A DNA stretch of 64,000 nt from Omnitrophica bacterium RIFCSPHIGHO2_02_FULL_51_18 (GCA_001804125.1 MHFI01000036.1:23123-87122); one strand, 5' to 3'. Shown: positions 8,462-20,532, counted from the stretch's first letter. Numbers and translations: made by a program. The notes: generated by a model not told the origin, from the sequence alone.

Positions 8462-9241
8462 CTATGGCAGGCTTACAAGATCGCCGGGTTCTATTTCAGC
8501 GCGCGTGTATTCGGGAAGCACCAGCGCTGCCGAAAGGGTCGCTCGGAGTTTTTGGACCACGGCTTTGCCGACGAGGCGGCTGTCACGGACAACATTCAGG
8601 ACCGCCCCTTGCTTGATCCCGTCTTTCGATCCGGCATTGATAAGGATAAATCCGTAGTTTTTGTCCACGTGTTCGACTCGGGCCACATTGCCGGAAGATT
8701 TTTGGACCACAATCCGGCCCAGTTTCACGTCCGGGGCATCCGGGATACCTGTCCTGTCTTTCGCCTCCCCGCCCTCTTTGCGCTTGGCTCGGGGACCCGC
8801 ACCGGCTGCCTCGAGTTTTTTGAGGGTATCCACAAGGTCCTGCCTGTCCGCTTCCAGCCGGCTTATTTTTTTCGTCAGCTCGGAAATTTTATTTTCGTTC
8901 GCGAGGTTTTGCTGTTCCAGGCCGTCTTTTTCGCGCAGCGCTGAATCAAGCTTTAAAGCCAGCTCCCTCCCGCTTTCTTCGTAACCGGCCATTTCTTGTT
9001 CAAGCGAAGCGATTCGGGTGTTCAAATTTTTTTCGTTCTCCGCCTTGGCCCTGCCGAGGTCCTCCAGTTCCGCTTGGACTGCCGCAAGCTCGGCTATTTT
9101 TGTCCGGAGCTGGGTTTCTTTTTCAGCCCTTAATTTTATTTCATGTTGTTTTTGAGCGTGGGCGGAAAATAAGGCAAAACCAAGCAATGAAACGATGATA
9201 AAAAGCAGGATAAGAATGGGGTTTTGTTTATTCATGAGCAA
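8462..9241 (-). CDS. Secreted or membrane-anchored coiled-coil protein with a small C-terminal beta domain.
   Basis: N-terminal hydrophobic segment, then about 150 aa of heptad-rich sequence (KLRAEKETQLR...). Confidence 0.4.
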   Translation of the reverse strand: MLMNKQNPILILLFIIVSLLGFALFSAHAQKQHEIKLRAEKETQLRTKIAELAAVQAELEDLGRAKAENEKNLNTRIASLEQEMAGYEESGRELALKLDSALREKDGLEQQNLANENKISELTKKISRLEADRQDLVDTLKKLEAAGAGPRAKRKEGGEAKDRTGIPDAPDVKLGRIVVQKSSGNVARVEHVDKNYGFILINAGSKDGIKQGAVLNVVRDSRLVGKAVVQKLRATLSAALVLPEYTRAEIEPGDLVSLP

Positions 9242-9308
9242 TAGGATTTAAAATACATGAATTTACCGCAAAGCGCAACCTTAATATGGACTGACCCCGC
9301 CTCCTTTT

Positions 9309-9713
9309 TTAGAGGTGTTTCGCTTCATATTTCCAGAAATCGCTAGGGGAAATAATATCAATGTTTTGATAAGGGCTTATTTTTAATAAAGCTTTGTCTC
9401 CGGTGATGATGCATTGGCATTTACCGGAGACAGCAGAACCTAGAATGGGCGGATCTTCAGGATCTTCACAGGCGCTGTCGGGGACGTCCGCGGGGATGTA
9501 AATTGTGGACTTTATTTGTGTGATTTCTACGGCGCGTGCCGCCTCAAATGTAGAATAACGAAATTTTGTAATCAAAGTTTTTTGAAGCTCGTCAAGAATG
9601 TAGTCTGAAGTGACAAGTGTGTGATTGCGTCCGCAGTGTTCGAATAGCTCGGTGCAGGCGCCGTGCACAATGAAGCCGGCGATGAGCACGTTTGCGTCGA
9701 GTAAAATTCTCAC
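9309..9713 (-). CDS. PIN-domain toxin (TA system toxin component, PIN family).
   Basis: MRILLDANVLIAG... with acidic catalytic residues. Paired with the upstream RHH gene by a 4-bp overlap. Confidence 0.75.
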   Translation of the reverse strand: MRILLDANVLIAGFIVHGACTELFEHCGRNHTLVTSDYILDELQKTLITKFRYSTFEAARAVEITQIKSTIYIPADVPDSACEDPEDPPILGSAVSGKCQCIITGDKALLKISPYQNIDIISPSDFWKYEAKHL

Positions 9714-9928
9714 GAAACTCGATCAAAAACATCCTGATCTGTGTAAATGCCCTGCGCTTTGGCTTTTGGGACCATTTGGCTGCGAAGTGCGCGAAATTGA
9801 TGCACAAACAGATAGTCCTTAATGGATTGTCGAATCAGATCGCTGCGCGAAATCCCCTCTTCAGCTGAGAGAGCGTCTATTTCTTTTTTGACCTCTTTTG
9901 GAAGGCTAATGGTAATAATTTGTCTCAT
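9710..9928 (-). CDS. Ribbon-helix-helix (CopG-like) antitoxin.
   Basis: MRQIITISLPKEVKKEIDALSAEEGISRSDLIRQSI. The longer ORF-track start is an artefact of reading into the REP palindrome. Confidence 0.65.
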   Translation of the reverse strand: MRQIITISLPKEVKKEIDALSAEEGISRSDLIRQSIKDYLFVHQFRALRSQMVPKAKAQGIYTDQDVFDRVS

Positions 9929-9992
9929 GATTATCTCCTGTATTAAATAATAATACATAAAATGACTTATGTCAATAGATGATTTGATCACA

Positions 9993-10027
9993 GGGACACC
10001 CATTTTCCAATGGAAAATGGGTGTCCC
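9993..10027. repeat. REP-like perfect palindrome GGGACACCCATTTTCCAATGGAAAATGGGTGTCCC.
   Basis: 35-bp perfect hairpin with a plus-strand T-tract after it. One of three copies. Confidence 0.8.
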
Positions 10028-10049
10028 TTTTTGTGACTGTCACTCCCCT

Positions 10050-10088
10050 ATCTTGGCTGTCCTCGGCGGCTTCCTTGAGCATATCCCG
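10050..10088 (-). pseudogene. 39-bp remnant of an antitoxin gene (38/39 identity to 11353-11391 inside the relB-like antitoxin).
   Basis: Direct sequence identity: atcttggctgtcctcggcggcttcyttgagcatatcccg. Encodes ...IRDMLKEAAEDSQD on the minus strand. Confidence 0.55.
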
Positions 10089-10120
10089 TCGGATAATTTA
10101 TTTTTAAGGTCCACCTTGAG

Positions 10121-10525
10121 TCACTTTAAAATATTCAAAAATTCTGCCGGGGAGACGATCTTAAAATCTAGCCGCGGCGGAATTGTTTTTAAATCCAGAT
10201 CTCCTGTAACAATGTGACTTGCCTTTGCGCCCACAGCGCAGGCGATGAATTTGTCGTCACCGGGATCCCGCGAGATGGGTTGGGATAATCTTTGGTCGGA
10301 GATCATATAACAAATCTCCGGAAGAAGGGTTGGCCAGTCACGCTCAACAATGGGGCTCGTGCCTTTTTTACTGAATCTATCAATCACCTTAAGATACTCC
10401 TCATAAATGGACGGCGTTATGCACGCGGTAAACTTGACATCAAGCCAGGCATCAACAATACGGCCCGGGATTCCGCCAAAATAGATCCCTGAGATAAGGA
10501 CATTGGTGTCTAAAACGACTCTCAC
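10121..10525 (-). CDS. PIN-domain toxin (second copy, same family as 9309-9713).
   Basis: MRVVLDTNVLISGIYFGG... Overlaps the antitoxin by 4 bp. Confidence 0.75.
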   Translation of the reverse strand: MRVVLDTNVLISGIYFGGIPGRIVDAWLDVKFTACITPSIYEEYLKVIDRFSKKGTSPIVERDWPTLLPEICYMISDQRLSQPISRDPGDDKFIACAVGAKASHIVTGDLDLKTIPPRLDFKIVSPAEFLNILK

Positions 10526-10800
10526 TTTGATTCGGTTCTCACCTTACGAATGGCTTCTTTAACATCAGCCGGAGTGAGCCCTGCCTTCCTAGCCCAGGCT
10601 CTCGACTCTTTGACTAATTTTTTAGCTCTTTCAAGAGCGGGACGCTCGATCTTCTTTAGGATCACAGTGTCTTTCTCCCCCAGGACGATAAACTTCTCCC
10701 CTTGAGTGAGATGAAGCTTAAGCCGAATCGTCTGAGGTAACACTACCTGCCCTTTGGATGAAAGCATTGTAACTTCAAGGTGTTTCATGGATTCCTCCAT
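10522..10800 (-). CDS. AbrB/MazE-type (SpoVT-AbrB fold) antitoxin.
   Basis: SSKGQVVLPQTIRLKLHLTQGEKFIV swapped-hairpin motif. Confidence 0.65.
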   Translation of the reverse strand: MEESMKHLEVTMLSSKGQVVLPQTIRLKLHLTQGEKFIVLGEKDTVILKKIERPALERAKKLVKESRAWARKAGLTPADVKEAIRKVRTESK

Positions 10801-10864
10801 TTCTTACTGGTAAGAATACCATACCGGATGCTAAAATTCAAGTTTTTCTCTGGCTGGATTTGTG

Positions 10865-10911
10865 TAGAAAGTCAGTGGATTCGATGCGAGCGATGTCAAT
10901 ATTTAGGGACT
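10865..10911. repeat. Copy R1 of the 46-bp motif GGATTCGAKGYGAGCGATGTCAATATTYAGGGACTGRCCCCTAACC.
   Basis: 42/46 identical to 13668-13712. Contains TTGACA on the minus strand. Confidence 0.6.
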
Positions 10912-11002
10912 GGCCCCTAACCCACGTTTTTTAAGTTTTTGACAGAACGCCATTCCCCTCTTTCGTAGGAATCGAGCACCTTCGTTTTCTATACCTTCAT
11001 AC

Positions 11003-11263
11003 TTAGAGATTTTTGTAGGAGCCTTTTCTATTTTTTACCAAGAGGATATGAATTTGTTTTTCCTTTGTGTTTGGAGAATAGAGGATTCGGTAGTCCCCCT
11101 GCTGCACTCGGTATAGATTGTCTTTACCGGAGATTTTCTTGGTGCCGCTTGGAAATGGATTCTTAGAGAGGTCTTGGAAAACCTCTTTTATTTTTTTGAC
11201 ATCATAGGCTGGAATCTTATCGAGATCTTTGAAAATCTTTTTCTCATAAAAGATTTGGTACAT
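11003..11263 (-). CDS. RelE/ParE-family toxin.
   Basis: 86 aa ...LYRVQQGDYRILYSPNTKEKQIHILLVKNRK. Start overlaps the antitoxin stop. Confidence 0.7.
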   Translation of the reverse strand: MYQIFYEKKIFKDLDKIPAYDVKKIKEVFQDLSKNPFPSGTKKISGKDNLYRVQQGDYRILYSPNTKEKQIHILLVKNRKGSYKNL

Positions 11264-11514
11264 TACCGAATATTTCTCTTGGAGAGGTATTGATCAAACT
11301 CTTTTTGAGAGGCAAACTCGGCGGTTTTAAGCCTACCGCGGGCCATGGAAATATCTTGGCTGTCCTCGGCGGCTTCTTTGAGCATATCCCGGATGGCTTT
11401 GGCAATAAAGAAGTTCATTTTGATACCGTGATTTTCACAGTATACGGATAATTTATTTTTAAGATCCACTGGAATCCTGGCGGCCAAAAAAACTTGTTGG
11501 GCATGAACGGCCAT
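11263..11514 (-). CDS. Antitoxin partner of RelE (RelB/DinJ or RHH-like).
   Basis: 83 aa. Position and 1-bp overlap with the toxin. Confidence 0.55.
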   Translation of the reverse strand: MAVHAQQVFLAARIPVDLKNKLSVYCENHGIKMNFFIAKAIRDMLKEAAEDSQDISMARGRLKTAEFASQKEFDQYLSKRNIR

Positions 11515-11589
11515 TGCGTATCTCCTTTGTTATATTATGATATAAAGATATATCATATTATCGTTCGCTTGTCAATACATCCATGGTGT

Positions 11590-11771
11590 TTTTTAATTCA
11601 GGGGACACTATACATAATTCAGACTCGCACAACCCCCTGCCTTTTCTTCGGTCCCGGCTTTGCCTTCTTCAAAGGCCTCTTTTTTAATTCAGGGGACACT
11701 ATACATAATTCAGACTCGCACAACCCCCTGCCTTTTCTTCGGTCCCGGCTTTGCCTTCTTCAAAGGCCTCT
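11590..11771. repeat. Tandem 91-bp direct duplication (2 units) covering the last 20 codons of the RAYT gene, its stop and the REP-like terminal sequence.
   Basis: Units 11590-11680 and 11681-11771 are identical by eye. Confidence 0.85.
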
Positions 11772-12438
11772 TGATCAGCCTTTCCAGCTTTTCAACGAAG
11801 CTCCCGTCTCCGAGCGGCCTTCCCGTCTTTGCGTACTTGTCCAGCATATCAGATTCTTTATCTATGCCTGATCTTAGAAAATTGTTCCAATCACGAATTT
11901 CAAGATCCAAGAAACACCTCGAGAGTATGGGATCGGAGCTTCCTAAGACATGCGCCGCAGCACTCGACCATTTATAATCGTGTGCGTTTTTAGCTATTCC
12001 TGCCTTCACCGGATTATTCTCTACATAGCGTACGGCGGCATAAAGGTAATTTTCATCCATCGGAAAACTTGAAAATCGTCCTTGAAACAGATACCCTCTC
12101 CACCCTCCTCTAAAATTTATCATCCGCGAGTACAATCGGTGAGTTTCTGCAAAGGCTCTGCAAAAGGTCTCCTTATCCGATGGCACAGCCACAAAATGAA
12201 CATGGGTGTCCATTAGACACCAAGCCCAAATACTGACTTCGTTGATCTTAAGATGTTTTTGTAGGATATTCAGATAGGCAGATTTGTCCTCATCCGAAAA
12301 GAACACAGGCTGATTTCTGTTCCCTCGCTGAATGACATGATGGGGAATGTTTTCTGCGACGACACGCGCTATACGAGCCATACCTTGGGATATTACTCGC
12401 AGGAGGACGATTGGTCAATAATTAAGTATAGTGTCCCC
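11601..12438. mobile_element. RAYT/IS200-like element bounded by 13-bp perfect inverted repeats GGGGACACTATAC.
   Basis: IRs at 11601-11613 (and the duplicate 11692-11704) and at 12426-12438 (reverse complement). Encloses the Y1 transposase gene. Confidence 0.65.
11710..12381 (-). CDS. REP-associated tyrosine transposase / IS200-like Y1 (HuH) transposase.
   Basis: HuH motif HVHFVAV and a downstream catalytic Tyr region (YxxxY). 223 aa. Confidence 0.8.
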   Translation of the reverse strand: MARIARVVAENIPHHVIQRGNRNQPVFFSDEDKSAYLNILQKHLKINEVSIWAWCLMDTHVHFVAVPSDKETFCRAFAETHRLYSRMINFRGGWRGYLFQGRFSSFPMDENYLYAAVRYVENNPVKAGIAKNAHDYKWSSAAAHVLGSSDPILSRCFLDLEIRDWNNFLRSGIDKESDMLDKYAKTGRPLGDGSFVEKLERLIKRPLKKAKPGPKKRQGVVRV

Positions 12439-12448
12439 GAAATCGAAG

Positions 12449-12742
12449 TTAAGCTGCTCTTAGAGCTTCTAGGATCGCATCGGGACGCTTGGCGGCAATG
12501 GCTAAAAGTGCGCGCGCAGCTCCTTCGGGATAAGTTCGTCCCTGTTCCCAATTCCGCAAAGTTGCGGGGCTCACGCCGATAAAACGAGCAAATTCAGATT
12601 GGGATACATGGAGTTTTCTCCGTACCGCCTTCAGTCGGATGGGTTCAAACCGAATCACCCGCCCGGGTTTGTGTTTACCCGCACGAATAGCCCGCGCCTG
12701 GTTAATGCTCCTAAGCAGGTTTTTAAAACCTAGTTCTTTCAT
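12449..12742 (-). CDS. higA: HigA-like HTH (XRE family) antitoxin.
   Basis: HTH: LHVSQSEFARFIGVSPATLRNWEQGR. Lies downstream of the toxin, which is the HigBA gene order. Confidence 0.65.
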   Translation of the reverse strand: MKELGFKNLLRSINQARAIRAGKHKPGRVIRFEPIRLKAVRRKLHVSQSEFARFIGVSPATLRNWEQGRTYPEGAARALLAIAAKRPDAILEALRAA

Positions 12743-13059
12743 AATACCCCCTTTACCACGTAAGCGCTCAAAACTTTCAATTGGTGTTTGGTCAAATCCC
12801 CTTGTTTGCTCTTTTCATAGGCATAGATCATGTAAAGCCGCTCGGTTGAGAAACAATAGTAAATCACTCGGATGCCGCCGCTTTTGCCTTTTCCCTTTTT
12901 GCCCGAGCGCCACCGGATCTTACGCAAACCTCGCCCGCCGGGAATAAGATCGCCGGCCTTCGGATTTCCCGCCAACGCGGTTTGCAAACCCCAGTACTCT
13001 TTCTCACTCAATAATTCACAAATAAGCTTCGTGAATACCGTGGTTTCTATAAATTGCAT
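12739..13059 (-). CDS. higB: HigB/RelE-family toxin.
   Basis: 106 aa with GGIRVIYY..ERLYMIYAYEKSKQGDLT. The toxin-first gene order is typical of HigBA. Confidence 0.65.
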   Translation of the reverse strand: MQFIETTVFTKLICELLSEKEYWGLQTALAGNPKAGDLIPGGRGLRKIRWRSGKKGKGKSGGIRVIYYCFSTERLYMIYAYEKSKQGDLTKHQLKVLSAYVVKGVL

Positions 13060-13074
13060 CTTAGCCGTCTAAAG

Positions 13075-13101
13075 CAAGTATACGCTATCAGCGTATACTT
13101 G
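13075..13101. promoter_or_regulatory. Candidate HigBA operator: 12-bp perfect inverted repeat CAAGTATACGCT-atc-AGCGTATACTTG.
   Basis: Lies 16 bp upstream of the higB start. Confidence 0.5.
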
Positions 13102-13138
13102 TCAAGTGAGGTTGTAATTTCATATATAAACCATAATG

Positions 13139-13372
13139 CTAAGTCGTGTACTGCGCGGCGTAAGTATCAAGCAGTGTTCGAATGATTTTTTGATAGGGGG
13201 CGTGATATTTACGCGCCGTTTTCTTAAAGAACCGAACACTTGATTTGCTCAACACCATCGTAACTTTCACCGGCTCTTCCTTGAAGGCCAGCTTCTCAGG
13301 CGGAGGCAGAAAGTCCTTGATGATACGAAGCTTACCTATGGGTTCATTCGTGTATTTTATTTTGTGATTCAT
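13139..13372 (-). CDS. brnA: BrnA-type antitoxin.
   Basis: FLPPPEKL...VTMVLSKSSVRFFKKTARKYHAPYQKIIRTLLDTYA matches the BrnA family pattern. Confidence 0.6.
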   Translation of the reverse strand: MNHKIKYTNEPIGKLRIIKDFLPPPEKLAFKEEPVKVTMVLSKSSVRFFKKTARKYHAPYQKIIRTLLDTYAAQYTT

Positions 13373-13447
13373 AAATCCCCTTTCCTCTGCGCCAATAACC
13401 GGCTCCAAAGATACGGATTGCGTTCGCCCGATAAGTGAAACGTACTG

Positions 13448-13504
13448 TTAAAACACCCTCTCCGACCTGGCCGAAACATCAGGTTCCCACTCAAAATGCG
13501 TCAT
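13448..13504 (-). pseudogene. Truncated brnT toxin remnant (18 codons, MTHFEWEPDVSARSERVF-stop).
   Basis: My own translation. The MxFEWD..K start is characteristic of BrnT (DUF497). No ORF of 60 aa or more is present where brnT should lie. Confidence 0.4.
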
Positions 13505-13544
13505 AATCTCACAACTAATGAAGAGTATACATCATATATGGTAA

Positions 13545-13566
13545 TTTTACCATATAAATTTATGGA
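13545..13566. promoter_or_regulatory. Candidate BrnTA operator palindrome TATATGGTA-n4-TACCATATA, next to a TATACT -10-like box.
   Basis: 9-bp perfect inverted repeat directly upstream of the brnT remnant. Confidence 0.45.
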
Positions 13567-13667
13567 ACTTAATATGGACTGATCGGCTTGGGATGACCCT
13601 TAACTCTTTCCTTTGAAAGAAAACTCGAGATGACAGAGGAGGACCTGTGGCGACTAAACTATTGCGC

Positions 13668-13712
13668 GGATTCGAGGTGAGCGATGTCAATATTCAGGGA
13701 CTGACCCCTAAC
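13668..13712. repeat. Copy R2 of the 46-bp GGATTCGA...GGGACTGACCCCTAACC motif.
   Basis: See R1. Located at the island boundary, just downstream of the SBBP gene stop. Confidence 0.6.
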
Positions 13713-13720
13713 CGTTTTCT

Positions 13721-16030
13721 CTAATTCCCGGCGATATGGAGCGGGTCGGAAATGCTTGCGCCCTCCGATAATTCCACGACAAAGCCTTCGTCGCCGCCGC
13801 TGTAGGTACCTTGGAAGGCAGTGACGGGCGTCTCCCAATCGGTGGTATTCGGAGAATACCCGCCGGCGTATATTTCGCTGCCATCGACAGCCAGAGATCT
13901 GACATAGTCGTTACCCACACCGCCTAACCAGTGGCCCCCGTTAAGAGTAGGAGTAGTGCCGTCAGCGATTTTCACGACGAAGCCTTCAGCACCGCCGCTG
14001 TGGTTACTGCCCGACTGGAAAGGGACACTCTCCCAACTGGTGGTACTGCCAGAATACCCGCCAGCGTATATTTCATCGCCGTTGACAGCCAGATCGTAAA
14101 TTGCATCACCACCTGTGCCGCCCAACCACTGGCGCCAGTTAAGAATGGGGGCAGCGCCGTCAGCGATCTCCACAACAAACCCCTCCCAGCTGCCGCTGAA
14201 ATTACCCTGAGAGGGGTTAACAGGTGTCTCCCAACCAGCGGAATTGTCAGAATATCCGCCGGCGTATATTTCATCGCCGTTAACAGCCAGGGCTCGAACT
14301 GAATCACTGCCTGTGCCACCTAACCACTGGCGCCAGTTAAGAACGGGCCAGGGACTGCCCTCAACAATCTCCGCGACAAAACCTTCGCGGCCGCCGCTGT
14401 AGTCACCCCCGTAGCTTGTGAAATTATCCCAATTAGTGGATTGGGAAGAATACCCACCGGCGTATATTTCATCACCGTTAACAGCCAGTGCATCAATAGA
14501 ATCATCACCACCTGAGCCGCCCAACCATTGGGCCCATGCAATAGCGGGTGTAGCGCCGTCAGCGATTTCCACGACAAAGCCTTCCATTCCTCCGGAACCC
14601 CCGTAGTCGCCTCGGAAGTAGGTTTCACCCCCCCACGTGTCGCTACCTTCAGAATCCCCGCCGGCGTATATTTCATCGCCGTTAACAGCCAGGGCTTGAA
14701 CTGAATCTTGACCTGCGCCGCCTAACCACAGGCCCCAGCCAATGGTGGGGACAGCGCCGTCAGCGATTTCCACGACAAAGCCTTCGTTGATACCGTTGAA
14801 TGGCTCTTGGAAGGCGGGACCATCCCAACTGTTGTCACTGGTCGAAGACCCGCCGGCATAAATTTCATCGCCGTTGACGGCCAGGGCGTAAACTCCATCA
14901 TTACCCGATCCACCCAACCACTGACCCCAGTTAATTGTGGGGGTAGCGCCGTCTGCGATCTCCACGACAAAGCCTTCGGTGCCGCTGCTGTGGGTGCCCT
15001 TAAAGGAGGCGAGACTATCCCAATTGGAAGCGTTACCGGACCACCCGCCGGCATAAATTTCATCGCCGTTGACGGCCAGGGCGTAAACTCCATCATTACC
15101 CGATCCACCCAACCACTGACCCCACTGCAAGGTCGGGTCAATGAGGAGTGGGTAGGCGGACAAAGGCTCGTGGATGGAAAGAAGGAGTGTTCGTTCATCC
15201 AGAAGGACGGGGTCTACTTTTTTCTGCGCGCCGTCCGCCGTCCAGTAGAGAAAGGGTTTGATGCGGGCCACAAGCTCATCTTTTTCAATAGCGACCCCTT
15301 TGGGGAGCGCTTTCCGCACTGTGTCGATGAGTTCCCGCCTTTTTTTGGTGTCTCTCGGGTCAATGCCCTGGATATTGACGATCGCCTTTTGGTAGATGCC
15401 CACAGAGCCGTCTTCGTCTTTTTTGAATTTGAATATCTTGGGATAAGAAGCTCTCCCGGCCGAAAGAGACCAGACATACTGAGTCACGTCATTGTGGTTC
15501 GGCCTTTTGGCGTAGAGCCATTCATTAAGAACTACTTCCCCTTCCCCTGTCCTGCCCTGGGCGTAGGCAATGGCGTCCGTGGGGCGCTCGTAAACCAGCC
15601 AGTCGCGGTTAGGGGCGCTAAAAACTCTTTGAGTGAATGGCTGGCCGGTATTCTTGAGGGTAAGGTCAAAAGAGACTGTTTCCATGCCAAGTTCAAGCAG
15701 GGTGCGTTGTTTCACGGTGGTGGAGAGAGTGTCGAATAAGGTGCGGATTTTAACGAAAACATTTTTTTGTCCGGGCGCTCTCCTAATGGCGAGCTCGCTC
15801 GTAAAGCCCGTGCCGCTGGGACCCTGCTCTATTCTTTCCGCGGAGACGATACGGCCATTCATTAGGCTTTGTTTTTCGTCCATGAGGCGTAGGGCGGATA
15901 CGAGTTCCTGTGAGAGCCCCGGCAGTGACAAAGGCAGGAGCGCCTCAGGCCCCGCCGCGACAAGATTTGCCTTGACGATGAGTAGCGAACCGAGCGCCAC
16001 TAGCCACAAGACAGCTTTTCTTTTATGCAT
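13721..16030 (-). CDS. Secreted SBBP beta-propeller repeat protein (8 repeats), a candidate pilus-associated adhesin.
   Basis: Signal peptide. Repeated WGQWLGGSGNDGVYALAVNGDEIYAGG units. Lies at the distal end of the T4P gene cluster. Confidence 0.7.
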   Translation of the reverse strand: MHKRKAVLWLVALGSLLIVKANLVAAGPEALLPLSLPGLSQELVSALRLMDEKQSLMNGRIVSAERIEQGPSGTGFTSELAIRRAPGQKNVFVKIRTLFDTLSTTVKQRTLLELGMETVSFDLTLKNTGQPFTQRVFSAPNRDWLVYERPTDAIAYAQGRTGEGEVVLNEWLYAKRPNHNDVTQYVWSLSAGRASYPKIFKFKKDEDGSVGIYQKAIVNIQGIDPRDTKKRRELIDTVRKALPKGVAIEKDELVARIKPFLYWTADGAQKKVDPVLLDERTLLLSIHEPLSAYPLLIDPTLQWGQWLGGSGNDGVYALAVNGDEIYAGGWSGNASNWDSLASFKGTHSSGTEGFVVEIADGATPTINWGQWLGGSGNDGVYALAVNGDEIYAGGSSTSDNSWDGPAFQEPFNGINEGFVVEIADGAVPTIGWGLWLGGAGQDSVQALAVNGDEIYAGGDSEGSDTWGGETYFRGDYGGSGGMEGFVVEIADGATPAIAWAQWLGGSGGDDSIDALAVNGDEIYAGGYSSQSTNWDNFTSYGGDYSGGREGFVAEIVEGSPWPVLNWRQWLGGTGSDSVRALAVNGDEIYAGGYSDNSAGWETPVNPSQGNFSGSWEGFVVEIADGAAPILNWRQWLGGTGGDAIYDLAVNGDEIYAGGYSGSTTSWESVPFQSGSNHSGGAEGFVVKIADGTTPTLNGGHWLGGVGNDYVRSLAVDGSEIYAGGYSPNTTDWETPVTAFQGTYSGGDEGFVVELSEGASISDPLHIAGN

Positions 16031-16043
16031 GGCTCCCCTTTCT

Positions 16044-16079
16044 TTCCCCTTAATAATAGATCACGGGGACACCCATTTT
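16044..16079. repeat. REP-like perfect palindrome GGGGACACCCATTTTCCATTGGAAAATGGGTGTCCC.
   Basis: 36-bp hairpin in the spacer between two co-directional genes. May act as a terminator. Confidence 0.8.
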
Positions 16080-16106
16080 CCATTGGAAAATGGGTGTCCC
16101 TTCTTG

Positions 16107-18240: not shown

Positions 18241-18608
18241 GTTTGCGTTATCTGTCCGGTTGCGTAGGTCATGGTAAACGTTGTGGTTGTGCTTCCTACC
18301 GTGCGCGACATCTCGGAGATGGCCGTACCGACGGATGTGATCGTGTAATAAACGGGACTTGCCAAGTCCGTGTTGAGATTAGTGTTTATGGTAGCTACGG
18401 GAGGATTTGAACCGCCGTCCCAGAAAGCGCCTCCGTTGTTGAGGGCATAGATCTTTTGGGCCGTGTATAGGATGTTGAGGTAGGTGTACGGCTCATTTTG
18501 GTAGGAGCGCTCGATCTGCCCGGTGTAAATCGGCACCGCAGCCCCAGCCATGACCGCCAAAATAGCCAGAACGACCAACACCTCAACAAGCGTAAATCCT
18601 TTTAGTTT
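18237..18608 (-). CDS. Type IV pilin (second pilin; start taken at MKLKGFTLVEV).
   Basis: GFTLVEVLVVLAILAV class III signal. Confidence 0.7.
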   Translation of the reverse strand, partial: KLKGFTLVEVLVVLAILAVMAGAAVPIYTGQIERSYQNEPYTYLNILYTAQKIYALNNGGAFWDGGSNPPVATINTNLNTDLASPVYYTITSVGTAISEMSRTVGSTTTTFTMTYATGQITQT

Positions 18609-18722
18609 CATCGGATACATCCACCTAATCAAGAGTATACAGCGAGAAAATGTATAATTCAACGAGCAACACTAATAAATATTATGTGAAAATTATCAAC
18701 GGCACACACAACGCCAGTCAAA

Positions 18723-18764
18723 CAAACAGGACGTAACACCTCAAAAGGTATCACGTCCTGTTTG
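18723..18764 (-). terminator. Rho-independent terminator downstream of pilA.
   Basis: Minus strand: CAAACAGGACGT-loop-ACGTCCTGTTTG followed by TTTGACTGG. Confidence 0.55.
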
Positions 18765-18790
18765 TGGCAAAAAACTCGGTAATGAATTCT

Positions 18791-19237
18791 CTATACCAAC
18801 TTGCCTGCCCCTACCAATGTGTATCCTGTGGCCGTACAGCTGAGAGTCACCGTGTCACCCGCCACTAGCGGTGCAACTGCGCCAGCGGCTACGCAATTCC
18901 AAGTAGTTGCGGAGGTAGCGTCTAGTGTGTAGGTGAAGTTAGGTACTTGACCCGCCGCCGCGGTATTGGGATTATAATCTATTAAAGTAAACGTCGCGCC
19001 CGTATAAGAGTTAGGGTTTGTCGTATTTGTTTGATAGTAAACCCCCATAGCGGCCTTAACCACGTCCAGGTGATCGATAGCTTCCTTTTTGTAACCTTTC
19101 ATTTTTTGATTGGCTAGAATAGGAACAACCGCCGCGGCGATTACACCCAGCACCACTAACACTATTAAGATTTCGACGATGGTGAAGCCTTTTATCCCCA
19201 GTTTCCTTTTTTTACCAAGGATTTTTGATATTGACAT
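18791..19237 (-). CDS. pilA: Major type IV pilin PilA.
   Basis: Leader MSISKILGKKRKLGIKG then FTIVEILIVLVVLGVIAA. Has its own promoter and terminator. Confidence 0.8.
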   Translation of the reverse strand: MSISKILGKKRKLGIKGFTIVEILIVLVVLGVIAAAVVPILANQKMKGYKKEAIDHLDVVKAAMGVYYQTNTTNPNSYTGATFTLIDYNPNTAAAGQVPNFTYTLDATSATTWNCVAAGAVAPLVAGDTVTLSCTATGYTLVGAGKLV

Positions 19238-19280
19238 ACACCCCCCTTTTTAAGAGTAAAACATGCTTATTTCTACTTAG

Positions 19281-19309
19281 AATATATCATTAAAGATAAT
19301 TAAAGTCAA
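19281..19309 (-). promoter_or_regulatory. Sigma70-like promoter for pilA (TTGACT-17-TATATT).
   Basis: Read on the minus strand. Strong GGGGGG ribosome-binding site 7 nt before the ATG. Confidence 0.45.
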
Positions 19310-19317
19310 GAAATACT

Positions 19318-20532
19318 TTAATGAATCGCCTCACTTAGAGAAAACATGGGGACAAAAAGAGCATAGGCAATGATACCTACAAAAGCGCCAACAATGATCA
19401 GGACCAACGGCTCGACTAAAATGCCGATGCGCGTGCTTAACGTGTCGACTCTTTCTGCATAAAATTCAGAGGCCTTGGAGATCATAGCGGGCAGACTGCC
19501 GCTCTCTTCCCCTATCGTGACAAGCTGGATAAACATGGGTGAGAAGATGGGATCCGTTTGAAGACTGGCCGAAAGCGTCTGCCCCCGCTGGATCCCTTTT
19601 GTTGCGGCAAGGAACGCGTTCTCAAAAACAGAATTGCCGGCGGCGCGTGATGCGATCTCAAGGCTTTGAATCAAATTCACGCCGCTTTTTATCAAGGTCG
19701 ACAAGATGATGCAGATCCTTGCGTGAATAAAATCATTCAGGCCTTCTCCCAGCACCGGGACGAGCAATAGAAGCCGATCCAACTGCCGGCGGCCCACGGA
19801 AGTCGAAATGTATTTCTTCGATAAGAAAAAAAGGCCGATGGCCATAAACGCGATGAAAAAAATATAATGCTGGATTACGGTGCTAATGTTGATGATCGCC
19901 ATCGTAAGCGGCGGAAGCTTAGCGTTAAATTGTGAGAATATTTTCTGGAATATCGGTATGATCCGTAACATGAAAAGGAGCAAAACACCCACAGAGCAAA
20001 TCACGAGAATGCAGGGGTAAATCAACGCCGATATTATCTTTTTCATCAGAAGATGATTGGACTTGACATTCTTGGCCAGCTCTTTTAAGACCATGGGCAC
20101 GGAACCGCTCGTCTCCCCCGCCTCTACAAGGAATAACCAAAGTTTCGGAAAATGTTTTGGATGCCTGGCCATGCTGTCCTTAAGGGTCGAGCCCGCCCTT
20201 ATGTTCGAGATGATCGCGCCGATCACTTCGTTCATCCTTTGACTTTCCGTTAAAAGAGCGATAATTTCGAGTGACCTTACGAGCGGAATCCCCGCTTCTA
20301 GAAGCATGGCAAGCTGGTCCAAAAAGAACAAAGTATCCTCGGACCTTATCCTGCGACGGCGCAGTTTCCGCCGGCGGGAAGGGTCCGAAGCGCTCCCCAG
20401 CGAAGCCAGCTTTATGACAAGAAGTCCGCGGTTTTGAAGAGCTGTTACGGCTAGACGTTCACTCTCTGCCTCTTGGATCCCTTGAACCATTTCGCCCGAT
20501 GAGGCGCGGGCGTTGTAATTATAGACGGGCAT
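19318..20532 (-). CDS. pilC: Type IV pilus platform protein PilC (GspF family).
   Basis: 404 aa, two T2SSF domains, three transmembrane helices. Confidence 0.85.
   Translation of the reverse strand: MPVYNYNARASSGEMVQGIQEAESERLAVTALQNRGLLVIKLASLGSASDPSRRRKLRRRRIRSEDTLFFLDQLAMLLEAGIPLVRSLEIIALLTESQRMNEVIGAIISNIRAGSTLKDSMARHPKHFPKLWLFLVEAGETSGSVPMVLKELAKNVKSNHLLMKKIISALIYPCILVICSVGVLLLFMLRIIPIFQKIFSQFNAKLPPLTMAIINISTVIQHYIFFIAFMAIGLFFLSKKYISTSVGRRQLDRLLLLVPVLGEGLNDFIHARICIILSTLIKSGVNLIQSLEIASRAAGNSVFENAFLAATKGIQRGQTLSASLQTDPIFSPMFIQLVTIGEESGSLPAMISKASEFYAERVDTLSTRIGILVEPLVLIIVGAFVGIIAYALFVPMFSLSEAIH

What the first reader, a model, noticed from the sequence alone, without database searches (positions are those of the whole stretch)
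9271..13712. Toxin-antitoxin island of about 4.3 kb with five TA modules and a RAYT, bounded by a 17-18 bp direct repeat
Between the PIN gene at 9309 and the SBBP gene stop at 13721 lie five modules. They are PIN-RHH (9309-9928), PIN-AbrB (10121-10800), RelE/ParE plus antitoxin (11003-11514), HigB-HigA (12449-13059), and BrnA with a truncated BrnT (13139-13504). The RAYT element, an antitoxin gene fragment and a REP palindrome sit among them. The flanking genes are housekeeping: a helicase with a GAF protein on one side and the T4P cluster on the other. A near-perfect direct repeat AAC(C)TTAATATGGACTGA occurs at 9269-9291 and 13567-13589, exactly at the two edges, as expected for attL/attR of an integrated element or a recombination-generated cassette array. 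No integrase is present, so the island may be a decayed integrative element, or a TA hotspot assembled by REP/RAYT-mediated recombination.
Basis: partly seen in the sequence, partly recalled or inferred. Interest (0 to 1): 0.6.

Follow-up and report, generated by a model that had tools for sequence, protein, structure and literature searches.

The report
Plasmid-type toxin-antitoxin islet in Omnitrophota
A 4.4-kb stretch of foreign, low-GC DNA carrying five small toxin-antitoxin gene pairs and a transposase sits between a pilus operon and core genes of an uncultured Omnitrophota bacterium; it is real and flanked by a short repeat, but it is an ordinary kind of accessory islet.

Summary
Window 9.3-13.7 kb carries four intact type II TA operons (RHH-PIN, AbrB-PIN, antitoxin-ParE, HigB-like/NadS), one decayed BrnT/BrnA pair and a RAYT-like Y1 transposase. 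An exact 15-bp direct repeat (9280-9294, 13568-13582) lies at both edges. Such a match arose in 1 of 20,000 simulations.

Relatives with 72-79% identical GAF protein keep the same gene order but have only 67-123 bp at this site. The islet has GC 0.445 against 0.52-0.53 in the flanks. It is therefore a lineage-specific insertion.

Two modules have 83-85% nucleotide relatives lying together on a plasmid-like contig (integrase, two RepA, iterons, ParA).

At least five structural haplotypes exist among near-identical strains: IS256-like insertions, a second RAYT, loss of modules, and a 91-nt copy-number change.

The attL/attR reading is unproven. No integrase, tRNA target or empty site was found. 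A second 46-nt repeat pair is interleaved with the 15-mer pair and shares its GGGGTCAGTCC core.

Best reading: stepwise build-up and decay of plasmid-type addiction modules at a variable site. It is a new member of a known kind, of low to moderate interest.

The parts
9280..9294 (.). Left copy of the exact 15-bp direct repeat CTTAATATGGACTGA. It lies 15 nt past the PIN1 stop and 45 nt upstream of the 257-aa gene start. With its flank it reads GGGGTCAGTCCATATTAAG on the - strand.
9309..9713 (-). PIN-domain toxin 1 (VapC-like)
   Evidence: Pfam PIN_3 59.8 bits, TIGR00305 43.9 bits. 84.5% nt identity to the module on plasmid-like L025.
9710..9928 (-). RHH (CopG) antitoxin 1. It overlaps the PIN1 start by 4 nt. 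A TTGACA-17-TATTAT promoter-like site lies at 9975-9947.
9992..10028 (.). Perfect 18+18 palindrome (REP-like hairpin). A second copy lies at 16065-16101.
   Evidence: z = -6.1
10025..10049 (.). Motif AGGGGAGTGACAGTCACAAAAAGGG (- strand). It is the common junction sequence and the insertion point of the IS256-like element in other strains (AAAAA duplicated in L016).
10049..10114 (-). Internally deleted, 3'-truncated fragment of a second copy of the 83-aa antitoxin gene
   Evidence: (D7, D9)
10121..10525 (-). PIN-domain toxin 2
   Evidence: Pfam PIN_3 72 bits. Cut to 5 codons in strain contig L007.
10522..10800 (-). AbrB/MazE-fold antitoxin 2
10877..10922 (.). Copy A of the 46-nt repeat D6 (91% identical to 13668-13713). 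It contains GGGGCCAGTCCCTAAATATT on the - strand.
11003..11263 (-). ParE/RelE-fold toxin
   Evidence: Pfam ParE_toxin 34 bits. 82.6% nt identity to L025.
11263..11514 (-). 83-aa antitoxin partner of ParE. It has no significant family hit. The same pairing is conserved on L025.
11589..11770 (.). Perfect 2 x 91-nt tandem duplication covering the 3' end of the Y1 gene and its right inverted-repeat arm. Strain contig L001 has one copy.
11687..12443 (-). RAYT-like Y1 (HUH) transposase element: a 223-aa gene at 11710-12381 flanked by 24-nt inverted arms (11687-11710 and 12420-12443, 88% complementary)
   Evidence: Pfam Y1_Tnp 35 bits; NCBIfam REP_Tyr_transpos 49 bits, below the cut-off of 80
12449..12742 (-). 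HTH antitoxin (NadS family, HigA-like)
12739..13059 (-). HigB-like RelE-fold toxin, upstream of its antitoxin. A TTGACA-17-TATACT promoter-like site lies at 13105-13077.
13139..13372 (-). BrnA-like RHH antitoxin (77 aa), apparently intact
   Evidence: Pfam BrnA 20 bits, below the cut-off. The family partner is BrnT in L027.
13373..13504 (-). BrnT toxin remnant: the first 9 codons joined out of frame to the last 32 or so codons
13568..13582 (.). Right copy of the 15-bp direct repeat. It lies 139 nt downstream of the 769-aa gene stop and 6 nt outside the brnTA promoter homology.
13668..13713 (.). Copy B of the 46-nt repeat D6. It starts 8 nt after the stop of the 769-aa gene.

Best explanation
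This is a lineage-specific accessory islet of about 4.4 kb in an Omnitrophota chromosome. It lies at the variable end of a type IV pilus and adhesin operon.

It consists of self-contained type II toxin-antitoxin operons of the kind that plasmids use as addiction modules. Four are intact and one has an inactivated toxin. There is also a RAYT-like Y1 transposase element and several gene fragments.

The modules most likely came from a plasmid pool. They accumulated by several recombination events, not one, and are being reshuffled and lost in the population through IS256-like and Y1-transposase elements and local deletions and duplications.

The 15-bp direct repeat is a real junction scar from one of these events: a duplicated target or crossover sequence. 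The related 46-nt repeat marks another event.

In function, each operon is inferred to be an autoregulated pair of stable toxin and labile antitoxin. Such a pair penalises loss of its own DNA, and this would explain why such cassettes persist and pile up once inserted.

Shown: gene content, insertion relative to relatives, deviant composition, plasmid relatives, population haplotypes and non-random repeats. Inferred: direction of transfer, order of events, TA activity and what made the repeats.
For: - Two strong sigma-70-like promoters lie upstream of modules.
- Synteny: L009 (GAF 79% identical) and L010 (72%) have T2SSE, T2SSF, pilins and adhesin-like genes, then the 254/252-aa coiled-coil gene, GAF, UvrD, MFS, HEAT and Rieske. 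Only 67 and 123 bp occupy the site. The coiled-coil proteins are orthologous at 44% and 33% identity.
- Composition: islet GC is 0.445 against 0.523 and 0.532 in the flanks. GC3 is 0.41-0.56 against 0.57-0.72.
- Plasmid link: contig L025 carries Phage_integrase, RHH-PIN (84.5% nt identity to 9988..9305), RepA_C, iterons, antitoxin-ParE (82.6% nt identity to 11556..11003), a second RepA_C, HU and ParA. Its GC is 0.467.
- Stepwise history and turnover: an antitoxin gene fragment, a BrnT deletion and interleaved repeat pairs.
- Five structural haplotypes occur among contigs that are at least 99.8% identical elsewhere.
- The repeat is not chance.
- Literature: RelE/StbE and HigAB are typical cargo shared between chromosomes and plasmids in Omnitrophota (bioRxiv 10.64898/2026.05.20.726742).
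Against: - No conspecific contig lacking the islet was found, so the insertion is dated only to after the split from relatives with 79% identical GAF protein.
- The host of L025 is unknown, and the direction of transfer (plasmid to chromosome or the reverse) is not shown.
- Only two of the five modules have a documented plasmid relative.
- A single 15-bp repeat exactly at both outer edges is what a one-step site-specific integration would leave.
- No toxin or antitoxin activity was tested.
Confidence: 0.6

Rival explanations
1. This is a single decayed integrative element. The whole 4.3 kb entered in one site-specific recombination event, with the 15-mer as the att core (attL = 13568-13582, attR = 9280-9294). 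The integrase was later lost or acts in trans.
For: - An exact 15-bp direct repeat lies at both outer edges and is non-random.
- Both copies lie just outside the cassette homology.
- Homology with relative L009 starts inside the left copy, at 9286.
- The plasmid-like relative L025 encodes a tyrosine recombinase next to one of the modules.
- In sample ERZ27254845, contigs L019 and L005 meet at a branching node that ends at 9293.
Against: - No integrase lies within about 10 kb and there is no tRNA or tmRNA target.
- The 15-mer is absent from L025 and from relatives.
- No empty site or circular junction appeared among 9 contigs carrying PIN1 or in the metagenome scan.
- The D6 pair is interleaved with the 15-mer pair and shares its core.
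- Gene fragments inside the islet indicate several events.
- The inferred branch at 9293/9294 is 1 nt inside the repeat, which is not where a recombinant between the two repeat copies would branch.
Confidence: 0.2
2. This is a cassette array serviced by a trans-acting recombinase, similar to integrons or pdif modules. The motif family GGGGYCAGTCC(N0-4)ATATT at four module boundaries is the crossover site at which TA cassettes are exchanged between plasmids and chromosome.
For: - All three matches to GGGGTCAGTCC (up to 1 mismatch) in the 64 kb are in the islet, in one orientation and at module boundaries. About 1 match is expected in the whole window.
- None occurs elsewhere in 22 fetched loci.
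- The left repeat copy looks like a chimera: the D6 left arm (GGGG plus core) joined to the right arm of the other 15-mer copy.
- L025 also has an exact 23-bp repeat upstream of each of its two TA modules.
Against: - Only four sites exist, two of them 110 nt apart, and four other module boundaries lack the motif.
- There is no hairpin or attC-like fold (z about 0) and no dif-like 11-6-11 symmetry by inspection.
- The motif is absent from L025 and from GTDB species genomes.
- The chimera argument rests on 4 extra matching bases and was made post hoc.
Confidence: 0.1
3. The repeats have nothing to do with mobility. The modules arrived by independent illegitimate events, and the 15-mer is a duplicated regulatory or promoter-proximal sequence, or a coincidence.
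For: - The left copy lies in the promoter region of the 257-aa gene, 45-59 nt upstream of its start.
- The right copy abuts the palindromic brnTA operator region and shares CCATAT with it.
- The repeats are short.
Against: - Only 1 of 20,000 simulations reached a 15-nt match between the two boundary segments.
- The right copy lies outside the promoter homology conserved with L027.
- The shared core with D6 is unexplained by regulation.
Confidence: 0.08

Closest known systems
Chromosomal clusters of type II toxin-antitoxin loci in variable regions or genomic islets (for example TA-rich islands of Mycobacterium tuberculosis; general knowledge) and TA cargo shared between plasmids and chromosomes in Omnitrophota (bioRxiv 10.64898/2026.05.20.726742)
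   Same: - Several unrelated type II TA operons (VapBC-like, ParE/RelE, HigBA-like, BrnTA) are packed head to tail in a low-GC segment that relatives lack.
- Mobile-element genes and pseudogenised members are present.
- Plasmid homologues exist.
   Different: The islet is very small (4.4 kb) and consists almost purely of TA modules. It has no integrase. It is bounded by a 15-bp direct repeat, with a second related repeat pair interleaved.
TA cassettes in chromosomal integrons (Vibrio superintegron) and pdif modules of Acinetobacter plasmids, which also carry higBA and brnTA
   Same: TA operons behave as discrete cassettes that are swapped between replicons. A short recurring sequence sits at some cassette boundaries.
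   Different: - No IntI lies nearby and there are no attC hairpins.
- The repeats are direct and not Xer-like inverted pairs.
- The motif is found at only four sites.
REPtrons (RAYT genes flanked by inverted REPs) and IS200/IS605 Y1 transposases
   Same: - There is a 223-aa HUH/Y1 protein with HVH and Y-x-x-N-P motifs.
- It is flanked by inverted 24-nt arms.
- A second RAYT-like gene in other strains is associated with the hairpin at 9992-10028.
   Different: - The score is below the NCBIfam RAYT cut-off.
- The flanking arms are not palindromic and are not dispersed in the available sequence.
- There is no TnpB.

Membership tests
Type II toxin-antitoxin operons (five modules) | Adjacent small toxin and antitoxin genes on one strand, overlapping or nearly abutting | tested here: met
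   The gene pairs overlap by 1-4 nt: 9710/9713, 10522/10525, 11263/11263 and 12739/12742.
Type II toxin-antitoxin operons (five modules) | Toxin belongs to a recognised toxin fold above the family threshold | tested here: met
   PIN_3 scores 59.8 and 72 bits (cut-off 27), ParE_toxin 34 (cut-off 23) and PF06296 RelE 28.3 (cut-off 27). The exception is BrnT, which is disrupted.
Type II toxin-antitoxin operons (five modules) | Antitoxin carries a DNA-binding fold (RHH, AbrB, HTH) | tested here: met
   RHH_1, MazE/AbrB and HTH_3/NadS are above their cut-offs. The 83-aa ParE partner and BrnA are below their cut-offs.
Type II toxin-antitoxin operons (five modules) | Toxin arrests growth and the cognate antitoxin neutralises it | not testable with these tools
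   This needs expression experiments.
BrnT/BrnA | A BrnA-family antitoxin paired with an intact BrnT ribonuclease | tested here: not met
   BrnA is intact, and its 83%-identical homologue pairs with a 93-aa PF04365 BrnT. BrnT here retains 9 N-terminal and about 32 C-terminal codons, out of frame.
Integrated site-specific element (genomic island with attL/attR) | Direct repeats at both ends | tested here: met
   An exact 15 bp lies at 9280-9294 and 13568-13582.
Integrated site-specific element (genomic island with attL/attR) | Integrase or recombinase encoded in or next to the element | tested here: not met
   None lies in the islet or within about 10 kb on either side.
Integrated site-specific element (genomic island with attL/attR) | Empty site with one repeat copy, or an excised circle, in related genomes or populations | tested here: inconclusive
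   Relatives lack the islet, but their intergenic DNA is too diverged to show an attB. No empty site appeared in conspecific contigs.
Integrated site-specific element (genomic island with attL/attR) | Deviant base composition | tested here: met
   GC is 0.445 against 0.52-0.53, and GC3 is lower in every islet gene.
Integron cassette array | attC hairpin sites between cassettes and a nearby intI | tested here: not met
   The repeats do not fold, there is no integrase, and Rfam found nothing.
RAYT / REPtron | Y1 HUH transposase scoring as REP-associated tyrosine transposase | tested here: inconclusive
   Pfam Y1_Tnp is above its cut-off at 35 bits (cut-off 23). NCBIfam REP_Tyr_transpos scores 49.4 bits, below its cut-off of 80.
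RAYT / REPtron | Gene flanked by REPs in inverted orientation | tested here: met
   The arms at 11687-11710 and 12420-12443 are 24 nt long and 88% complementary.
RAYT / REPtron | REPs are imperfect palindromes dispersed in many copies in the genome | tested here: not met
   The arms do not form hairpins. There are only three copies, all at the gene itself, in 64 kb. Only part of the genome could be examined.

The most novel reading that the evidence does not exclude
The motif GGGGYCAGTCC(N0-4)ATATT, found only at four module boundaries of the islet, may be the crossover site of a trans-acting tyrosine recombinase carried by plasmids like L025. That would define a cassette-exchange system without hairpins or an adjacent integrase. 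It would shuttle toxin-antitoxin modules between plasmids and chromosomes in Omnitrophota.
Probability: 0.07. Interest if true: 0.6.

Novelty: new member of a known kind. Interest (0 to 1): 0.25.

Why it matters
The islet gives a clean, small example of how plasmid addiction modules settle in a chromosome of an uncultured, small-genome phylum. Public metagenomes already hold five structural variants of it. The locus could therefore serve as a natural marker for strain tracking and for measuring rates of gain and loss of TA modules, IS elements and RAYT elements. It does not change what is known about TA systems or genomic islands, unless the boundary motif proves to be a recombination site.

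Tried and rejected
- A GTDB genome scan with the GAF protein found no relative. A scan with the D6 core pattern gave 0 hits.
- A JGI metagenome scan with the left junction returned only a short contig of the window type.
- blastn of the islet against PLSDB gave no match.
- Rfam returned only sub-threshold rliE hits on the palindrome.
- The only tRNA is at 37.7 kb, so there is no tRNA target.
- PADLOC gave no defence-system hit beyond generic HTH matches.
- I considered that D6 is a relic of an antitoxin gene. In one frame two of its four substitutions are synonymous, and a VLDSYERGEW-like peptide precedes copy A. Pfam gave no support, so this stays a conjecture.
- A resemblance of D6 to Tn3-family terminal repeats (GGGG...TAAG) was seen by eye only. 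All copies are direct, so I rejected it.
- A dif/Xer-like reading of the repeats was rejected because they lack arm symmetry (inspection only).
- The low-GC stretch at 18.6-20.4 kb is not a second TA islet; it holds pilin and T2SSF genes.
What lies downstream of it in L007 and L008 is therefore unknown.

Full report
**1. What is there**

The organism is an Omnitrophota bacterium. GAF and PIN homologues are named Candidatus Omnitrophica / Omnitrophica bacterium RIFCSP. All genes from 4.7 to 17.3 kb are on the - strand.

Between the 257-aa coiled-coil gene (8462-9235) and a 769-aa repeat protein (13721-16030) lie the following features:

| Coordinates | Feature | Evidence |
|---|---|---|
| 9309-9928 | PIN_3 toxin + RHH antitoxin | |
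| 9992-10028 | Perfect 18+18 palindrome | |
| 10049-10114 | Fragment of an antitoxin gene | |
| 10121-10800 | PIN_3 toxin + AbrB/MazE antitoxin | |
| 11003-11514 | ParE toxin + 83-aa antitoxin | |
| 11710-12381 | 223-aa Y1 transposase with 24-nt inverted arms | |
| 11589-11770 | Perfect 2 x 91-nt tandem duplication | |
| 12449-13059 | PF06296 RelE-fold toxin followed by a NadS/HTH antitoxin (HigBA order) | |
| 13139-13504 | BrnA-like antitoxin + BrnT remnant | |

An 83%-identical BrnA in another organism (L027) is preceded by an intact 93-aa PF04365 BrnT. Alignment to it shows that the window's BrnT lost about 41 codons and is frameshifted. Strong sigma-70-like promoters precede the HigB-like and RHH genes.

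**2. The repeat**

The repeat is an exact 15-mer, CTTAATATGGACTGA, at 9280-9294 and 13568-13582 (17 of 18 positions with one indel). It has no other copy in the window or elsewhere in the 22 fetched loci. I defined the two boundary intergenic segments independently of the repeat (73 and 216 nt). A shared 15-mer between them arose in 1 of 20,000 first-order Markov simulations. The repeat is not chance.

**3. It is an insertion**

Two relatives whose GAF protein is 79% (L009) and 72% (L010) identical keep the order T2SSE, T2SSF, pilins, adhesin-like genes, coiled-coil gene, GAF, UvrD, MFS, HEAT, Rieske. They have only 67 and 123 bp where the islet lies. Their coiled-coil proteins are full-length orthologues. 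More distant relatives (57-60%) have a different neighbourhood.

Islet GC is 0.445 against 0.523 and 0.532 in the flanks. Every islet gene has a lower GC3 (0.41-0.56) than the flanking genes (0.57-0.72). The adhesin-like genes next to the islet also differ between relatives: a 769-aa repeat protein here, and one to three Peptidase_S74/PTL_trimer proteins there. The islet therefore sits at an already variable end of the pilus operon.

**4. Where the modules come from**

A PIN homologue with 80% identity lies on JGI contig L025 (7.6 kb). That contig encodes a Phage_integrase-family recombinase, RHH-PIN, RepA_C, iteron-like repeats, the 83-aa antitoxin with ParE, a second RepA_C, HU and ParA. It is a plasmid-like replicon.

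Its RHH-PIN module is 84.5% identical in nucleotides to window 9988..9305. Its antitoxin-ParE module is 82.6% identical to 11556..11003. Its GC is 0.467. Another RHH-PIN relative (L026) is a solitary chromosomal module.

A preprint reports RelE/StbE and HigAB among the typical protein clusters shared between Omnitrophota chromosomes and circular mobile elements (10.64898/2026.05.20.726742). A companion preprint lists TA and T4P genes as minor cargo of hypervariable loci in the phylum (10.64898/2026.06.07.730766).

**5. The islet is being remodelled now**

Contigs from other samples are at least 99.8% identical in the flanks but differ in structure.

- L002, L015, L013 and L019 have the window's arrangement over the parts they cover.
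- L001 has one 91-nt unit instead of two.
- L007 follows the window up to 10511. PIN2 is cut to five codons there. A 1.14-kb IS follows (333-aa transposase, weakly IS256-like), then a second RAYT-like gene of 213 aa (30% identical to the first).
- L008 leaves the window at 11686/11685, exactly at the outer end of the Y1 element's right arm. It continues into the same IS in inverted orientation, a 91-aa ORF and the second RAYT.
- L016 has the same left junction. Its IS is flanked by a duplicated AAAAA and rejoins the window at the palindrome. The ParE and AbrB-PIN modules are absent in that strain.

All haplotypes keep the outer modules. None lacks the islet.

**6. Why a single attL/attR pair is not enough**

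A second repeat pair, D6 (46 nt, 91%; 10877-10922 and 13668-13713), is interleaved with the 15-mer pair. Reading the - strand from the pilus side, the order is D6-B, 15-mer, D6-A, 15-mer.

With its flank, the left 15-mer reads GGGGTCAGTCCATATTAAG. D6 reads GGGG[T/C]CAGTCCCT[G/A]AATATTGAC. All three matches to GGGGTCAGTCC (up to 1 mismatch) in the 64 kb lie at these sites, where about one is expected in the whole window. No further copy occurs in the other loci.

Neither repeat folds. Neither is present in L025 or in relatives. No recombinase lies within about 10 kb, and there is no tRNA target.

Both 15-mer copies lie just outside the cassette homology. Homology with L009 begins inside the left copy, at 9286. 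This fits a junction sequence. Whether it is an att core, a target duplication or a microhomology cannot be decided.

**7. An unresolved hint**

In ERZ27254845, contig L019 (window type, 10507..9153) and contig L005 share exactly the 141-mer 9293..9153. That is a branching node of the k=141 assembly graph. No variant at 9152 was seen in any contig. Another sequence may therefore enter at 9294, one base inside the repeat. This is an inference from contig ends only.

**8. Verdict**

The att-site claim and the idea of assembly by RAYT are not established, although transposable elements clearly remodel the locus.

The most likely account is stepwise accumulation, decay and reshuffling of plasmid-type addiction modules at a variable site. 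The repeats are junction scars. This is a new example of a known kind of feature.

Noticed in passing
L007:15529-16668; L008:14363-15502 (inverted); L016:~90-1195: A 1.14-kb insertion sequence encodes a 333-aa transposase with an N-terminal CxxC. It is weakly IS256-like (37 bits, below the cut-off) and has terminal repeats GGGGTTGG.../...CCAACCCC. It is present in three strain contigs in two orientations and absent from the window. In L016 it is flanked by a duplicated AAAAA at window ~10025-10029.
   Followed up: partly
L008:15853-16494; L007:16686-17324: A second RAYT-like Y1 gene (213 aa; REP_Tyr_transpos 70 bits, below the cut-off of 80; 30% identical to the window's) is flanked by GGGACACCC / GGGTGTCCC. 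These are the two halves of the window palindrome at 9992-10028. The palindrome may be an empty REP doublet of this element. Both contigs end at this gene.
   Followed up: partly
window 16065-16101: A second copy of the 18+18 palindrome (1 mismatch) lies in the gap between the 769-aa and 254-aa genes, outside the islet.
   Followed up: partly
window 8590-9044 (inside the 257-aa coiled-coil gene): There is a dense patch of polymorphism next to the islet. L005 has 19 differences in 8682-9044 and one in the next 8 kb. Other contigs carry different subsets, and several contigs end inside the patch. This looks like mosaic recombination tracts or diversifying selection in the coiled-coil segment.
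   Followed up: partly
It is built of units of about 66 aa (198-nt period). Relatives carry one to three Peptidase_S74/PTL_trimer (tail-fibre-like) proteins in the same slot after the minor pilins. This is a variable adhesin-like cargo position of the T4P operon.
   Followed up: partly
L025:673-695 and 2556-2578: The plasmid-like contig has an exact 23-bp repeat, TTTGTTTAGAAATCTATCCAATT, upstream of each of its two TA modules. Each module is followed by a RepA_C paralogue, and iteron-like repeats lie at 2318-2400. This looks like a duplicated backbone unit with the TA module swapped.
   Followed up: no
window 11589-11770: The perfect 91-nt tandem duplication (3' end of the Y1 gene plus its right arm) is polymorphic. 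There are two copies in the window, L002 and L007, and one in L001.
   Followed up: yes
L005:1 / L019 end (window 9293..9153): Two contigs of one sample overlap by exactly k = 141 and end or start at 9293, one base inside the left repeat copy. This implies an unseen variant at this position.
   Followed up: partly
window 10877-10922 and 13668-13713: On the - strand, one frame of the D6 repeat reads VRGQSLNIDIA[H/R][L/I]ES. Two of the four substitutions are synonymous. Copy A is preceded by a peptide like VLDSYERGEWRSVKNLK. It may be a relic of a lost gene, but it has no family match.
   Followed up: partly
window 18600-20400: A second low-GC stretch (0.42-0.47) covers a 148-aa gene and the T2SSF (PilC-like) gene of the pilus cluster. 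It has no TA genes.
   Followed up: no
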